Shown here in pieces: positions 54,355 through 59,500 of a DNA stretch of 64,000 bases. Under the pieces are notes generated by a model that was given only the letters and a program-made list of their open reading frames with translations, was not told the origin of the DNA and ran no database searches. The DNA comes from an uncultured bacterium (GTDB lineage: Bacteria > Zhuqueibacterota > QNDG01 > DTFT01), in NCBI GenBank assembly GCA_963736115.1, contig CAVTNR010000014.1:32001-96000 (forward strand), given 5' to 3'. The position numbers were made by a program, and so were the translations under genes. The stretch's first letter is position 1; every line of letters starts with the position of its first letter.

Positions 54355-54406
54355 AATATACCAATTACAGATTTATAAATATTGATTAAACAGATAACTG
54401 ATTTTC

Positions 54407-54513
54407 GCATAACCCGTTAATCGTGCGGACGGTGCCCTAATCGGTCTTGACTTCCTGGAGGGGCGTGCAATGCGAAATATCCCATTGCCGCCCGCACATC
54501 AACCATGTTATGC
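54407..54513 (+). other. Integron attC site 1 (intact, 107 bp)
   Basis: R'' GCATAAC ... R' GTTATGC; TTAAT(C)GTGCGGACGG pairs with CCGCCCGCACATCAA with an extrahelical base. Confidence 0.88.
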
Positions 54514-54519
54514 GGATAT

Positions 54520-55167
54520 ATGAGGTATTCAAATATGATCATACGAATATTCCCGTCAGCTGTGATAAGGTACCCAGCGATAGTTCATCAGATAAAAATA
54601 AAGCTGACTATTTCCCTGTTGAATTGAACACTAAATGGACATATCAGTATTCATCATATTTTATTTCGAGTGGTTTTGATGGCGATTTCGTAGAAGCAAC
54701 AGATGAATGGGAAATTATAAATAAAACAATAAATGATACGGTTATAATTTATACAGTAAATAGAAATTCAAAGGAAGAATTTGAAAAGAAATATCAATTG
54801 AAGAATTGGTTAAAATACGATACAACCATAATAAATAATGAGATGAGCGTGTTCAATATTTATGAAAATATTCATTTAAATGTAATATCGATTGACTTAA
54901 AAGAAAGCGATAGTATGAATTACCTAAAAATGGAAATTATCATCTTGAACATTAAACGGAGTAGGATCAATACCACCTGGAAGTATGGTTATGTTTCGAT
55001 TTGGTGATTATATCGTTGGCCATGGTCTAGTCAGGGAAGATATCAAACCTATAAATATAAAAATAGAAGGTGTGACGTATCATGGTCTTATTAAATTTGA
55101 TAAACAATCTATAAAAATTTATCCAATAATCATTACCCATAAAGTTATTAGAAAAATATCTTACTAG
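54520..55167 (+). pseudogene. Cassette 2 gene: AT-rich lipoprotein-like ORF, apparently frameshifted/degraded
   Basis: SCDK...DYFPVELNTKWTY segment without an in-frame signal peptide; split into 54447-55007 and 54985-55167. Confidence 0.5.
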
Positions 55168-55249
55168 AAATCTGTCGGTTGCTCAACCATATTATAAACT
55201 TGATGCATACAAATTATTAGATACATTATTGATTAAAATACTAAAATTG

Positions 55250-55280
55250 GCATAACACGATCATTCTCGGGACGGTGCCC
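55250..55280 (+). other. attC site 2, left half (interrupted by IS110-family element)
   Basis: GCATAAC-AC-GATCAT(T)CTCGGGACGGTGCCC, homologous to the attC1 left arm. Confidence 0.85.
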
Positions 55281-55299
55281 CTTTAAAAAGGACAAAGTC

Positions 55300-55590
55300 A
55301 AGTATAAAATATCCTCTCGGGCGAAAACAATATGTTTTCGCCTAATGTAAAGATGGTTTGGATTGACGTAACAGCGTTCGTTCTTTGAAAAACTCTGTCT
55401 CTGTGCCGATTCAATATCGTTGAACGTCAATGGCGTCCATACCCCTTTCCGGGCTTGACTCTCTCAGATCGAGAGCGTTCCGAAATCGTCTCAGAACTAT
55501 CCCAGATATCTTATCGGCACTGCGAGCCTGACTTCCCAATCCCTACTGCGGATCTCTAGGATCCAGCACCGTCCCCGGGCTTGTCGGGCT
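55300..55590 (-). ncRNA. Predicted bridge/seek RNA of the IS1111-type element (ends approximate)
   Basis: Minus strand: GGGACGGTGC-hairpin-AGTAGGG matches both strands of the target; AAGATATC...AAAGGGG matches both strands of the circle junction. Confidence 0.78.
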
Positions 55591-56589
55591 CGGCCAGTGA
55601 CGCACTTTTACTCGTGTTAGTTTTTTCCCTTTAAAGGTAAAATCATAATCAGATTTCTTGGTGATGACGTGATACACGATACGGGCCAGTTCTTTGGCAA
55701 CCAGGTTCCGTGCAAGGTGTTTGTTTTTTTTACGGCATTTTCTTTGATAGAAGTCCCGGATTTCAGGGTAATTCGTGTAGGCGCTAACAGCCGCATCGTT
55801 GAAAACAATTTTTAGATAGTTATTGCCGGCTTTTGATTCTTTTTTGCCGTGCTTGCATTTTCCGCCCGAATTGGAAGCCGCAGGCACGACTCTCGAATAG
55901 GAGAAAAACTTTTTTTCCGTTGGGAATCTTGAAAAATCCCCAACTTCGAGAAAAATGGTGAATGCACTGATTTTACCGATACCTGGAATCCAGAGAATTC
56001 TCTGAACATCCTCATTGAGGACGACTTGAGGATAAATCGTTTTTTCCAGTTCTTTGACTTGTTCGTTTAGGAAATTGACATGCTCATCAAGCTGCTTGTA
56101 CTGAAATTGAAAAAGACCGGGTAGATCATCAGGATCGGTTACGTTGAATTTCTCAGTCAATCGGCAGATACTGTTTACGACACACGTTTTTCTTTGAATC
56201 AGGCGAAGTCTGGCTCTCATGAGATCGCGTTTATCCCTGAGAACGGGATCGATTTGATGGGCTTCAGGTATATAATCGATTCTAAGTAATTGTGCCATGG
56301 TTGTGGAATCGATTTGGTCTGTTTTGATTTTAGCAGTGGATATGGCTTTGAGTTTGTTGGTATTGGCCAGGATCATCTCGATGCCGTTCCCGTGAAGCAG
56401 GTCGGCGATCCAATACCATCCATTTGTGGATTCGACGACAACTTTGTGTGTGTTGCCAAGTTGTTGAAAATAATTGAGTATTTTATCGGGATGATTGTAT
56501 ATTTTCTGTTGCTCGATGACAACGCCTTTCTCATCGACGGTTGTCAGGTGAGAGAAGCTTTTATGAAGATCGATGCCGGTGTAATACAT
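55543..56589 (-). CDS. IS110-family DEDD recombinase/transposase
   Basis: GIDLHK, VVVEST, KTD.ID, IPGIG, SNSGG; GGGAGG RBS before ATG 56589. Confidence 0.95.
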   Translation of the reverse strand: MYYTGIDLHKSFSHLTTVDEKGVVIEQQKIYNHPDKILNYFQQLGNTHKVVVESTNGWYWIADLLHGNGIEMILANTNKLKAISTAKIKTDQIDSTTMAQLLRIDYIPEAHQIDPVLRDKRDLMRARLRLIQRKTCVVNSICRLTEKFNVTDPDDLPGLFQFQYKQLDEHVNFLNEQVKELEKTIYPQVVLNEDVQRILWIPGIGKISAFTIFLEVGDFSRFPTEKKFFSYSRVVPAASNSGGKCKHGKKESKAGNNYLKIVFNDAAVSAYTNYPEIRDFYQRKCRKKNKHLARNLVAKELARIVYHVITKKSDYDFTFKGKKLTRVKVRHWPSPTSPGTVLDPRDPQ

Positions 56590-56678
56590 GACGGGCCTCC
56601 CTGCTGACATTGGTGATTTTATGCTAATTTAATCACCTTGAATGAAAAGGGAAAGGACGTCCTTTTTGAAAATATCCC

Positions 56679-56753
56679 TACTCAGTTGTGGCTTTTTGAA
56701 AGCTGTGCAATCCGTAACCGATCATGTCCGCCCCGAGATGATCACCGTTACCA
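56679..56753 (+). other. attC site 2, right half
   Basis: TACTCAGTTG...GTGCAATCCG...CCGCCCCGAGATGATC-ACC-GTT; complementary to 55259-55275. Confidence 0.85.
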
Positions 56754-56899
56754 TCTGGTTAGATGAGATTACTATAAACTATTTTAAAAAGTTAGCTGAT
56801 GAAATTGATGTGCCCTATCAGACATTAATCAATCTTTATCTAAGAGATTGTGCTGCTACTAATCGAAAACTATCTTTAAAATGTCGACCGGCCGGTTAA
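56747..56899 (+). pseudogene. 5'-truncated BrnA/CopG-type ribbon-helix-helix antitoxin
   Basis: VTIWLDE.TI.YFK.LA.E..VPYQTLINLYLRDCA; begins exactly at the attC2 GTT. Confidence 0.72.
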
Positions 56900-56961: not shown

Positions 56962-58764
56962 ATGCTAAAAGAACATCCAAGAGGGTTACTTGTCGCATTC
57001 ATCGCCAACATGGGCGAACGCTTTGGCTTTTACACCATGATGGCCATTCTGGTGCTGTTCCTGCAGGCCAAATATGGTCTCAGCGAAAGAGAAGCAGGAA
57101 GTTACTACAGCTGGTTCTATTTCGGTATTTACGCGCTGGCGCTGTTTGGCGGCACGATAGCGGATTGGAGCAAAAAGTACAAGCTGGTCATTCTGGTTGG
57201 TCTGCTCGTCATGTTCTCCGGTTACATTATTATGAGTCTGCCGGGCAACACCCTTGCCATGACGCTGATCGGTCTTTTTATCATTGCCTTTGGCAATGGT
57301 TTATTTAAAGGCAACCTGCAGGCGGTGGTCGGTCAGATGTACGACAATCCGCAGTACTCCAAAGTCCGCGACTCCGCATACATGATTTTCTACATGGGCA
57401 TAAACGTCGGCGCTTTTTTCGCGCCATTTGCCGCCACAGCGGCCCGCAACTGGTTTTTAAAGACACAAGGGCTGCTCCACGACGGCAGTATGCCTGCCAT
57501 GTGTCATGCCTTCATGCGCGGAGAAATGAACGATATCGGAAAATTTCAGGCGCTCGCCGACAAAGTCTCCGGGCAAACGGTCACAAATCCGGGCGTATTT
57601 GCACAGCATTATATCGATGTTTTCTCCAGGGGTTACAATTATGCCTTTGCGCTCGCGGCAGGGGCGATGATTCTTTCCACCCTGGTTTTCGTCATTTTCA
57701 ATAAACATTTGCCGAACAAAGAAAATTCGGCCGTCAAGGAGAAAGTTGGTAAGGGATCACTGTCTTTTGTCTTGGCGCTGATCGCCGCCGCGGCATCAGC
57801 CGGTTTGGCATACCTCGCCTCCGGCAATGTGGACATATCGTTCGCTATCGGTCTTTTCATCGGGTTTGTAACATGGATCGTGCAGATTTCCACCAAAGAA
57901 GAACGGCCGCGCATCGTCGCCCTGCTACTGGTATTCCTAGTGGTCATCTTCTTCTGGATGTCATTCCACCAGAATGGGCTCACGCTCACCTTCTTCGCCC
58001 GCGATTATACGGTCAAGGAAGTCGGTCCTTTCACCAACATATTCTTCGATCTCACATCCATGCTGGTATTTATCGGAGCGGTGGCCGGATTTTTCCTGCT
58101 CCTGCTGAACAAGAAATCGTTGGGCAAATTGATCGGCGGAGTCATGTTGGCTGGTTTAGGCTATTTAACCTATTACTTTGTCTCGCGAAATCAGACTTTA
58201 AATCCCATCGCCCCCGAAGTATTTCAGTCATTCAATCCGCTCTTCATTGTTGCGCTAACTTTTCCGGTGATGGCCATTTTCGCCTGGTTGAATCGAAAAA
58301 ATATTGAGCCTTCAACGCCGAAAAAGATCGGCATCGGCATGATCATCGCATCCATCGGCTTTCTCATCGTGCTGGTCGCCTCCCTCAAGCTGGTGTCGCC
58401 GCACATGCTGCAATACGTCGACGGGTTCGGCAAGCAGGCGTACAATCCGGTGCCGGATACATCGCGGGTCTCGCCCTACTGGCTGATCCACAGTTACCTC
58501 ATCCTCACCATTGCAGAACTATTCCTCAGTCCGATGGGATTGTCTTTTGTGTCGAAAGTTGCGCCAGTGCGTTTCCAGGGCGTGATGCAGGGTGGCTGGC
58601 TGCTGGCTACGGCCGTTGGTAACAAGCTCCTGGTCGTCGGCAGTTACTTCTGGGGCAAACTGGATCTGTGGCAGCTTTGGGGTATTTTTATCATCTGCTG
58701 TTTGTTATCGGCTGGATTTATTTTTTCAATCATGAAAAGGCTAGAGCAATCCACCAAAAGCTGA
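56962..58764 (+). CDS. POT/PTR proton-dependent oligopeptide transporter
   Basis: HPRGL, ERFGFY, GNGLFK, FYMGINVG, FQSFNP, ELFLSPMGLS. Confidence 0.94.
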   Translation: MLKEHPRGLLVAFIANMGERFGFYTMMAILVLFLQAKYGLSEREAGSYYSWFYFGIYALALFGGTIADWSKKYKLVILVGLLVMFSGYIIMSLPGNTLAMTLIGLFIIAFGNGLFKGNLQAVVGQMYDNPQYSKVRDSAYMIFYMGINVGAFFAPFAATAARNWFLKTQGLLHDGSMPAMCHAFMRGEMNDIGKFQALADKVSGQTVTNPGVFAQHYIDVFSRGYNYAFALAAGAMILSTLVFVIFNKHLPNKENSAVKEKVGKGSLSFVLALIAAAASAGLAYLASGNVDISFAIGLFIGFVTWIVQISTKEERPRIVALLLVFLVVIFFWMSFHQNGLTLTFFARDYTVKEVGPFTNIFFDLTSMLVFIGAVAGFFLLLLNKKSLGKLIGGVMLAGLGYLTYYFVSRNQTLNPIAPEVFQSFNPLFIVALTFPVMAIFAWLNRKNIEPSTPKKIGIGMIIASIGFLIVLVASLKLVSPHMLQYVDGFGKQAYNPVPDTSRVSPYWLIHSYLILTIAELFLSPMGLSFVSKVAPVRFQGVMQGGWLLATAVGNKLLVVGSYFWGKLDLWQLWGIFIICCLLSAGFIFSIMKRLEQSTKS

Positions 58765-59408: not shown

Positions 59409-59500
59409 CCATAACCCGCACCTTGGACTCAGTTGTGGCTTCCTGGAGCCCGTGCAATCCGAAAGCAATCATGCCCGCCCGCACAGGTTGCCCGTTGTGA
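59409..59500 (+). other. attC site 4 (attC1/attC2 family, internally deleted)
   Basis: R'' CCATAAC is complementary to GTTATGG at 59155; body ACTCAGTTGTGGCTT...GTGCAATCCG...CCGCCCGCAC homologous to attC1/attC2; R' GTTGTGA. Confidence 0.78.

What the first reader, a model, noticed from the sequence alone, without database searches (positions are those of the whole stretch)
55250..56753. IS1111-type bridge-RNA recombinase programmed against integron attC sites, with all four guides readable
Seen: removing 55281-56678 rebuilds an intact attC containing GGGACGGTGCCCTACT, and joining the element ends gives the junction AAAATATCCCCTTT. On the recombinase (minus) strand, 55575-55566 reads GGGACGGTGC (10/10 with the target left arm). 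A GGATC/GATCC hairpin follows, then 55547-55541 reads AGTAGGG (7/7 reverse complement of the right arm CCCTACT). Further 3', 55512-55505 reads AAGATATC (7/8 with donor AAAATATC; the mismatch would be a G:T wobble), then a stem region, then 55448-55442 reads AAAGGGG (7/7 reverse complement of CCCCTTT). Both first guides are followed by TG, and all four read toward the C-rich core. The target loop overlaps the last codons and the TAG stop of the recombinase. Known: IS110/IS1111 recombinases use a bridge/seek RNA with target- and donor-binding loops, IS1111 elements carry it 3' of the gene and have sub-terminal IRs, and some IS1111 elements target attC. Inference: this is a complete RNA-guided recombinase system with a CC(C) core, possibly an uncatalogued reprogrammable ortholog. 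A TTGACT at 55301-55296 faces outward and would sit 17 bp from GATATT after circularisation, a candidate junction promoter.
Basis: partly seen in the sequence, partly recalled or inferred. Interest (0 to 1): 0.92.

Follow-up and report, generated by a model that had tools for sequence, protein, structure and literature searches.

The report
RNA-guided insertion sequence in integron attC
This is an intact jumping gene of the IS1111 type that sits in an integron recombination site (attC) and carries its own guide RNA matched to that site; the kind has been known since 2024, so this is a well-documented new member, not a new system.

Summary
The 1398-bp element encodes an IS110-family DEDD recombinase. 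Its 3' non-coding RNA has two internal loops.

In 159 fetched relatives:
- the first target guide changes together with the right flank;
- the last donor guide equals the element's right end in 72 of 73 loci;
- the target-loop stem keeps pairing through compensatory changes in 8 of 9 pairs;
- a split promoter with a 17-nt spacer forms on circularisation in 86 of 87 junctions.

The flanks are a real attC in a three-attC array. The element lies antisense, near the attC 5' end, as published for the IS1111-attC group.

The mechanism and attC targeting are already published (Siddiquee 2024, PMC11187229; Durrant 2024, PMC11208160). This scan already holds 37 similar notes on other DNA.

What is new here:
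- The lineage is distant, at most 34% identity among the 25 best plasmid hits listed.
- This subclade has moved its target 21-23 nt inward from the attC inverse core.

Verdict: new member of a known kind, moderate interest.

The parts
55250..55279 (+). 5' part of the split attC: inverse core R'' GCATAAC (55250-56), 12 nt, then the right-flank target GGGACGGTG (55269-77) and the left copy of the CC core (55278-79)
   Evidence: nhmmer hit 55247-55280 to this genome's attC family
55280..56675 (-). Body of the insertion sequence, 1396 bp without the core.
55285..55293 (-). Right-end sub-terminal inverted repeat (GTCCTTTTT on the element strand), followed by the 5-nt terminal extension AAAGG (55284-55280)
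   Evidence: 0 mismatches to the left repeat
55296..55301 (-). Outward-facing -35 box TTGACT of the junction promoter
   Evidence: TTGAC-like box, 17 nt, GATATT in 86 of 87 distinct in-silico junctions
55320..55342 (-). Stem-loop GGCGAAAAC/GTTTTCGCC between the RNA and the -35 box; possible RNA 3' end; function not shown
   Evidence: in the MFE; one search found no canonical terminator
55403..55520 (-). Donor-binding loop: closing stem GTGCCGAT (55520-13) with ATCGGCAC (55410-03); guide C AAGATATC (55512-05); inner stem UGGG/CCC; guide D AAAGGGG (55448-42); conserved GATATT (55418-13)
55524..55591 (-). Target-binding loop: 9-bp stem (55591-83 with 55532-24); CCC/GGG (55579-77 with 55537-35); guide A (55576-66); hairpin (55564-50); guide B AGTAGGG (55547-41)
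55543..56589 (-). Recombinase gene, 348 aa from the ATG at 56589 (GGGAGG 6 nt upstream; relatives start there). The ORF is open from 56610. Its last ~16 codons overlap the target loop
56659..56667 (-). Left-end sub-terminal inverted repeat (AAAAAGGAC on the element strand), preceded by the 8-nt terminal extension ATATTTTC (56675-56668)
56671..56676 (-). -10-like GATATT, which lies 17 nt from the -35 box only after the ends are joined
56676..56753 (+). 3' part of the split attC: right copy of the CC core (56676-77), left-flank target CTACT, variable centre, then the core R' GTTACCA (56747-53)
   Evidence: nhmmer hit 56676-56750
54405..54527 (+). Neighbouring intact attC of the same family; its copy of the target differs at 2 of 16 positions
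59410..59499 (+). Third attC of the array

Best explanation
An intact IS1111-type insertion sequence is inserted antisense, 21 nt inside the 5' end of an integron attC.

Inferred mechanism, by homology with ISEc11/ISKpn4 and IS621:
1. The element excises as a circle.
2. Joining the ends creates a promoter (TTGACT, 17 nt, GATATT) that drives the recombinase gene and the RNA encoded behind it.
3. The RNA folds into two internal loops.
4. In the target loop, guide A pairs with one strand of the right half-site (CACCGTCC on the element strand) and guide B with the other strand of the left half-site plus core.
5. In the donor loop, guides C and D do the same with the joined element ends.
6. The DEDD/Ser recombinase exchanges strands at the CC core.

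Shown here: anatomy, conservation, covariation and the nature of the target. Inferred: RNA production, binding and catalysis.
For: Protein:
- Pfam PF01548 (53.9 bits) and PF02371 (65.1 bits).
- NCBIfam NF033542 'IS110 family RNA-guided transposase', 174.6 bits against a cut-off of 140.
- IS621 (8wt6) E = 2.7e-7, with the KTDxxD motif and a Ser aligned. That this Ser is the catalytic one is from recall.
- D14, E60 and D98 are invariant; D101 and S248 nearly so, in 32 sequences.

Guide A covaries with the right flank:
- Contiguous matches: WIN 9, and L086, L089, L093 and L158 8 each, on different sequences.
- L087, L091 and L092 match by eye.

Guide D equals the terminal 5 nt of the right end in 72 of 73 loci, and 7 nt in 62 of 73. 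The non-cognate rate is 14 of 110.

Structure:
- Target-loop stem: 97.9% of cells paired, 8 of 9 pairs with changes on both sides, 0 of 500 shuffles as high (MAFFT alignment of 91 sequences).
- Donor loop: 81.9% paired against 26-51% when slid. The inner stem switches GC (27) to AU (21).
- Fold z-score -4.09.

Junction promoter in 86 of 87 junctions.

Target:
- It is the conserved block of this genome's attC family. There were 17 nhmmer hits, and 9 attC-context sites lie within 2 mismatches of the 16-mer.
- A relative about 92% identical sits at the same place in another attC in run X1.
Against: - Only one copy is present in this 87%-complete assembly. An exact, empty copy of the 16-nt window tested lies on contig C16, and six more attC sites have one mismatch. 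So current activity is not shown.
- Guide B does not match the left flank beyond the core in L089 and L090.
- Guide C has an internal mismatch here, and only a 5-7 nt run in relatives.
- Across all 99 unique pairs, the cognate excess for guide A is small (mean run 4.13 against 2.99), because most relatives share one target class.
- Four loci fit only after a 1-nt shift or fit poorly: L075, L078, L091 and L159.
- An automated search for the donor-loop closing stem did not beat shuffles (6.08 against 5.78). RNAalifold gave only 8 pairs at -2.36 kcal/mol.
- No promoter-like site on the gene strand lies upstream of the gene inside the element, and no canonical terminator was found.
Confidence: 0.9

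Rival explanations
1. The element was RNA-guided when it arrived but is now a dead single copy. The guides are a fossil record of one insertion.
For: One copy in the genome. An exact empty target on C16 and six one-mismatch targets are left unused. No promoter on the gene strand lies upstream of the gene in the integrated state.
Against: The ORF is intact, with the conserved residues kept. The inverted repeats are perfect, 9 of 9. Both promoter halves are intact. Relatives 95% and about 92% identical lie in other attC sites of other samples, which argues for recent movement of the lineage. The assembly is a draft, in which repeated IS copies tend to be lost.
Confidence: 0.2
2. Site choice is made by the protein recognising the folded attC hairpin (as integron integrases do), and the RNA matches are by-products.
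For: All targets of the family lie in attC sites, which fold. Most relatives match only 3-6 nt of their right flank.
Against: In the window's subclade, guide A follows the flank base for base over 8-9 nt in five different target sequences. Relatives such as L158 have non-attC-like flanks that still match their guide. Guides A and B address opposite strands on the two sides of the core, which needs duplex DNA. For ISKpn4/ISPst6 the RNA was shown to be essential (PMC11187229, abstract and passages).
Confidence: 0.04
3. The four matches are chance or leftovers of recombination, with no RNA involved.
For: The three 7-8-nt matches would each be unremarkable alone in 1.4 kb.
Against: The 10-mer is found only at the two expected places in 64 kb. 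All four segments sit at fixed places of a structure conserved through compensatory changes. They vary with flanks and ends in relatives.
Confidence: 0.01

Closest known systems
IS1111-attC group (ISPa21, ISPst6, ISKpn4, ISPa25); seekRNA shown for ISKpn4 and ISPst6 and predicted for ISPa25 (Siddiquee et al. 2024, PMC11187229; group defined by Tetu & Holmes 2008 and Post & Hall 2009, which I could not read)
   Same: DEDD recombinase. RNA downstream of the gene. Sub-terminal inverted repeats. The guide complementary to the top strand lies 5' of the other. [quoted passage not shown] A promoter forms at the circle junction (shown for ISEc11 in PMC11187229).
   Different: The 25 best plasmid hits listed are 29-34% identical, and all of at least 5000 matching records are under 60%. 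The RNA region has no blastn match in 72,556 plasmids. Hosts of relatives are Ignavibacteria, Bacteroidota and Gemmatimonadota MAGs. The window's subclade inserts 21-23 nt inside the inverse core, where attC sequence is family-specific. The exact site used by ISKpn4 was not available to me (it is in figures and supplements).
IS621 / ISCro4 bridge-RNA recombinases (IS110 group; Durrant et al. 2024, PMC11208160; PDB 8wt6, 9t56)
   Same: Two-loop RNA with four guides, a dinucleotide core shared by target and donor, and the same protein domains.
   Different: The RNA lies at the 3' end, not the 5' end. The guide order is reversed. The inverted repeats are long. The protein match is weak (E = 2.7e-7).
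Group IIC-attC introns (PMC3001079)
   Same: Another mobile element that inserts near the 5' end of attC, antisense to the cassettes.
   Different: It is a ribozyme/reverse-transcriptase element, unrelated in protein and mechanism.

Membership tests
IS110 family of RNA-guided DEDD recombinases | N-terminal RuvC-like DEDD domain with the four acidic residues | tested here: met
   PF01548 53.9 bits against a cut-off of 29. D14, E60 and D98 invariant, D101 nearly so. KTDxxD aligned with IS621.
IS110 family of RNA-guided DEDD recombinases | C-terminal Tnp domain with the conserved serine | tested here: met
   PF02371 65.1 bits against a cut-off of 21.3. S248 aligns with the Ser of IS621's YESG motif. 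That this Ser is the catalytic one is from recall.
IS110 family of RNA-guided DEDD recombinases | Curated family model passed | tested here: met
   NF033542 174.6 bits, cut-off 140.
IS110 family of RNA-guided DEDD recombinases | Non-coding RNA with a target loop and a donor loop whose guides match flanks and ends | tested here: met
   Target loop. Donor loop: (weaker for guide C and the closing stem). The RNA itself was not observed.
IS110 family of RNA-guided DEDD recombinases | Circular intermediate | not testable with these tools
   Only the potential is shown: a split promoter conserved in 86 of 87 junctions. The contigs laid showed no circle junction.
IS1111 group | Sub-terminal inverted repeats of 7-17 bp | tested here: met
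   9 bp, 0 mismatches. 12 bp if one mismatch is allowed (by eye).
IS1111 group | Long non-coding region and RNA downstream of the gene, short left end | tested here: met
   262 nt after the stop against 86 nt before the ATG at 56589.
IS1111 group | The guide complementary to the top strand is 5' of the bottom-strand guide | tested here: met
   Guide A is the reverse complement of the right flank on the element strand, and guide B is identical to the left flank. The rule is from PMC11187229 section 9.
IS1111 group | Terminal extensions of 7 (or 6) bp left and 3 bp right | tested here: inconclusive
   8 and 5 nt when the 2-nt core is left out. The figures depend on where the core is counted.
IS1111-attC group | [quoted passage not shown] | tested here: met
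   R'' at 55250-56, core at 55278-79, gene on the minus strand, attC sites on the plus strand. The definition is from the PMC3001079 passage.
IS1111-attC group | Transposase inside the monophyletic attC subgroup | not testable with these tools
   No reference sequences were on hand: ISfinder is absent, supplements are closed, and PMC2447020 is not held. Indirect evidence: at most 34% identity among the plasmid hits listed.
IS1111-attC group | Same nucleotide position in attC as ISKpn4/ISPst6 | not testable with these tools
   The position is given only in figures and supplements that I could not see.

The most novel reading that the evidence does not exclude
The window's element belongs to a large clade of attC-targeting IS1111-like elements of Ignavibacteria, Bacteroidota and Gemmatimonadota. 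This clade is not described in the papers searched and is separate from the clinical IS1111-attC group. Most members aim guide A at the near-universal inverse core (RYYYAAC) and insert right beside it. One nested subclade, which includes this copy, has re-aimed its guides 21-23 nt inward, at the attC-family-specific arm. There guide A tracks attC subfamilies base for base. Because guide A overlaps the end of the gene, the retargeting also removed the stop codon and lengthened the protein by about 10 residues.
Probability: 0.4. Interest if true: 0.5.

Novelty: new member of a known kind. Interest (0 to 1): 0.35.

Why it matters
- It is a clean natural example of guide reprogramming. Within one clade, the same RNA scaffold carries at least seven different 8-9-nt guides, each matching its own attC variant. 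It also shows which scaffold positions stay fixed.
- RNA-guided insertion sequences that invade integron cassette arrays are common outside Proteobacteria.
- For tool builders it adds one more distant IS1111-type candidate with readable guides. It does not open a new question, because the mechanism and the attC habit are already in print.

Tried and rejected
- Other copies in the own genome: none, so target consistency had to come from relatives.
- The first scan of genome contigs with the single protein found nothing. The alignment-based scans worked.
- Rfam: no family matched at E up to 1.
- Direct comparison with ISKpn4/ISPa21/ISPst6 failed:
  - PMC2447020 is not held.
  - The best P. aeruginosa plasmid hit (L166) is not in an integron.
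  - Papers gave no usable plasmid coordinates.
  - blastn of the RNA region against plasmids found nothing.
- My first regexes for the RNA start and for guides C and D were wrong and were replaced. The 'MISMATCH5' rows were a 1-nt register fault of the regex, cured.
- The label regex filed ATAAC guides under 'other'. I read the tree by the guide sequences printed with it. L087 and L088 were not in the tree.
- The heuristic search for the donor-loop closing stem did not separate from shuffles.
- RNAalifold on the donor loop gave a near-empty consensus. The structure counted was derived from the window's own sequence, so its slid controls flatter it.
- Sequencing runs: no RNA holder is listed. 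All holders had small shares (0.13 or less). The four laid were contigs only, and no circle junction was seen.
- No structure prediction or complex job was run, because none was needed.
- Print searches behind the statement that attC-targeting guide RNAs are described only by Siddiquee 2024 and Durrant 2024 in the held library. Supplements of PMC11187229 (ISfinder sequences, target logos) are closed and may hold relatives of this element.
Full report
**The observation.**
- The + strand reads GGGACGGTG (55269-77), then a run of four C (55278-81), then TTTAAAAAGGAC.
- The other end reads GAAAATAT (56668-75), CC (56676-77), then CTACT.
- Taking out 1398 bp rebuilds one continuous site. The cut can slide by 3 nt inside the C run.
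- A contig of run X1 joins 55277 to 56676 with that same 3-nt ambiguity. It is a related, uninterrupted attC from another sample (side 27 letters, likeness threshold 88, so it shows the empty form exists, no more).
- On the minus strand the four segments, the GGATC/GATCC hairpin, the TAG stop in its loop and the TTGACT box all stand where stated.
- The 10-mer occurs only twice in the 64-kb window, at the flank and in the RNA (expected 0.24).

**The protein.**
- The minus-strand ORF 55543-56610 carries PF01548 and PF02371. It passes NCBIfam NF033542, 'IS110 family RNA-guided transposase' (174.6 bits, cut-off 140).
- It matches the IS621 recombinase weakly (8wt6, E = 2.7e-7). Its KTDxxD motif and a serine align with those of IS621. 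That this serine is the catalytic one I know only from recall.
- In an alignment of 32 relatives, D14, E60 and D98 are invariant, and D101 and S248 nearly so.
- Relatives start at the ATG at 56589, which has GGGAGG 6 nt upstream. The likely product is therefore 348 aa.

**Relatives.**
- The protein search gave 1073 proteins at E up to 0.001 among 3415 candidates. A few are close (97, 94, 87%), and then there is a broad group near 50-58%.
- I fetched 79 loci from genome contigs, with best identity 53%. Most are MAGs labelled Ignavibacteria, Bacteroidetes, Melioribacter, Gemmatimonadales or Rhodothermales.
- I fetched 80 loci from metagenome contigs at 95, 90, 87, 71, 69, 57% and lower.
- In plasmids, all of at least 5000 matching records are under 60% identical. 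The 25 listed are 29-34%.
- The RNA region has no blastn match in plasmids.

**Ends.** In 102 of 160 loci (the window included) both ends could be placed by the inverted repeat.
- The layout is the same throughout: flank, 2-nt core, 8-nt extension (ATATTTTC here), 9-nt repeat ... 9-nt repeat, 5-nt extension (AAAGG here), 2-nt core, flank.
- On the element strand the cores (left, right) are GG/GG in 38 loci, TG/GG in 30, TG/TG in 30, GT/GT in 2 and GG/AG in 2. GG/TG was never seen.
- The window has GG on both sides, which is CC on its + strand.

**Target loop.** The RNA begins inside the end of the gene.
- A MAFFT alignment of 91 distinct sequences (from 93; two long outliers, L116 and L111, were left out) shows an invariant AAGCCC, 11 variable nt (guide A), TGG, a variable hairpin, a variable stretch (guide B), then an invariant ATTGGGAA-like box.
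- The 9-bp stem that closes the loop is paired in 97.9% of cells. Eight of 9 pairs change on both sides, and no shuffle of 500 reaches the observed score. Slid controls fall to 34-44% paired.
- The apical hairpin is badly aligned by MAFFT (58% paired).
- Guides A and B lie in the internal loop, not in the conserved stems.

**Guide A and the right flank.** In the window's subclade the guide follows the flank.

| Locus | Guide A | Right flank |
|---|---|---|
| Window and L086 | GGACGGTG | CACCGTCC |
| L087 | GGACGCAA | TTGCGTCC |
| L089 | GGATGCGG | CCGCATCC |
| L091 | GGAATTTTA | TAAAATTCC |
| L092 | GATTGAAA | TTTCAATC |
| L093 | GATTTGAA | TTCAAATC |
| L158 | GATTGGCGA | TCGCCAATC |

- Contiguous runs were 9 for the window and 8 each for L086, L089, L093 and L158.
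- L091, L075 and L078 fit only with a 1-nt shift. L159 fits poorly.
- Over all 99 unique pairs, the cognate mean run is 4.13 against 2.99 for non-cognate pairs. The margin is small because most of the family shares one target class.

**Guide B.** It is weaker. Here AGTAG plus the GG core matches (7 nt). L086, L087, L091 and L092 match 3 nt plus core, and L089 and L090 hardly at all. The cognate mean run is 2.68 against 1.42.

**Donor loop.**
- Guide D equals the last 5 nt of the right end in 72 of 73 loci, and all 7 nt (with core) in 62 of 73. There are six different 5-mers. The non-cognate rate is 14 of 110.
- Guide C ends in ATATC almost everywhere, because the left end begins with GATAT almost everywhere. 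The matching run counted from the core is 5-7 nt. Position 6 follows the end (TAATATC with ATATTA ends, AAATATC with ATATTT ends) in part of the loci.
- The structure I named (8-bp closing stem, 3-bp inner stem) is 81.9% paired against 26-51% when slid. The inner stem switches between G-C (27) and A-U (21).
- Weak points: that structure was drawn from the window's own sequence, a heuristic stem search did not beat shuffles, and RNAalifold found little.

**Junction promoter.** Joining right end, core and left end in silico gives a TTGAC-like box, exactly 17 nt, then GATATT (TATATT in 2) in 86 of 87 distinct junctions. Inside the integrated element, no promoter-like site on the gene strand lies upstream of the gene. 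This is the arrangement shown for ISEc11 (PMC11187229 passages).

**The target is an attC.**
- The rebuilt site runs from GCATAAC (55250-56) to GTTACCA (56747-53). It folds as an imperfect hairpin: -37.7 kcal/mol for the bottom strand and -29.0 for the top, with RNA energy parameters.
- A profile of eight similar sites found 17 hits in the genome. They include arrays on C12 (6 hits) and C16 (5 hits).
- In the window the hits are 54405-54527, the two halves of the split site, and 59410-59499, all on the + strand.
- The element's target is the most conserved block of that family. One empty site on C16 is identical over the 16-nt window tested. Six sites have 1 mismatch, and two have 2, one of which is the neighbour at 54426.
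- The integron integrase match lies on another contig and has an internal TGA.
- The gene lies antisense to the attC sites and near their 5' end. A passage of PMC3001079 says the same of ISPa21 and ISPst6.

**The wider family.**
- Most relatives have a guide A ending in CTAAC or ATAAC, which is the attC inverse core. Their right flank begins TTAG or TTAT directly after the core dinucleotide. So they insert right beside RYYYAAC.
- One Rhodothermales MAG holds nine such copies among the fetched loci, each in a different flank.
- In a FastTree of 93 proteins, midpoint-rooted, the window's subclade (WIN, L086, L089-L093) is one clade nested among clades that aim at the inverse core. Its inward target, 21-23 nt from the inverse core, is therefore probably derived. 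This rests on midpoint rooting and is an inference.

**What is known.**
- Siddiquee et al. 2024 showed that IS1111 members, including the attC-targeting ISKpn4 and ISPst6, need a seekRNA encoded downstream of the gene and co-purify with it. The top-strand match lies 5' of the bottom-strand match, and ISPa25 has a predicted equivalent (abstract, passages and section 9; preprint passages).
- Durrant et al. 2024 predicted bridge RNAs in the right end of 93% of IS1111 elements (passages).
- In the held library, only these two papers treat attC together with such RNAs.
- This scan already holds 37 notes of the same kind in at least 31 genomes.

**Verdict.** The reading is right and unusually complete, but the thing is a new member of a known kind.

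**Limits.**
- No RNA, circle or transposition was observed.
- ISfinder and the supplements that hold its sequences were out of reach, so 'uncatalogued' and 'independent of the IS1111-attC group' stay open.

Noticed in passing
L008, L014, L044 and most loci; window 55543-55576: The end of the recombinase gene is also the RNA. The conserved W-P...S-P residues are encoded by the invariant TGGCC and AAGCCC boxes. In the clade that targets the inverse core, the stop codon is the TAA inside guide A (CTAAC). In the window's subclade the new guide has no stop, so the ORF runs about 10 codons further, to the TAG in the hairpin loop.
   Followed up: partly
window 55413-55418 (minus strand GATATT); same place in relatives: A GATAT-like motif, identical to the start of the left end and complementary to guide C, lies a median of 28 nt after guide D in 71 of 73 distinct sequences (about 36 expected in shuffles). 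The MFE pairs it with guide C. It could be self-masking or an extra donor guide; this is open.
   Followed up: partly
102 loci with both ends: The core dinucleotide differs between the two junctions in 30 loci, always TG on the left and GG on the right, never the reverse. In 8 loci guide D says GG while the right junction has TG. The asymmetry should bear on where the strands are exchanged.
   Followed up: no
L094 and L119: Two relatives have the guide A segment replaced by a short GC hairpin while the rest of the RNA is kept. They may be disabled copies.
   Followed up: no
window 56642-56899 (+): Directly after the attC core lies the C-terminal part of a CopG/BrnA-like antitoxin. The Pfam scores are below the cut-offs (23.2 against 28, and 18.9 against 26.1). 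No N-terminus is seen.
   Followed up: no
window 56962-58764 (+): A 600-aa ORF that looks like a membrane protein fills most of the 2.7-kb stretch between the split attC and the attC at 59410-59499. That is large for a cassette. I did not search it.
   Followed up: no
G000 C12:324986-325908 (L002, L004): The only integron-integrase match over the cut-off (345 bits) has one internal TGA. It lies about 212 kb from the attC array on the same contig.
   Followed up: no
run X1, record 2: A 1428-nt contig about 92% identical to the element reaches into a different attC left arm (GCTAAC...) at the same insertion point.
   Followed up: partly
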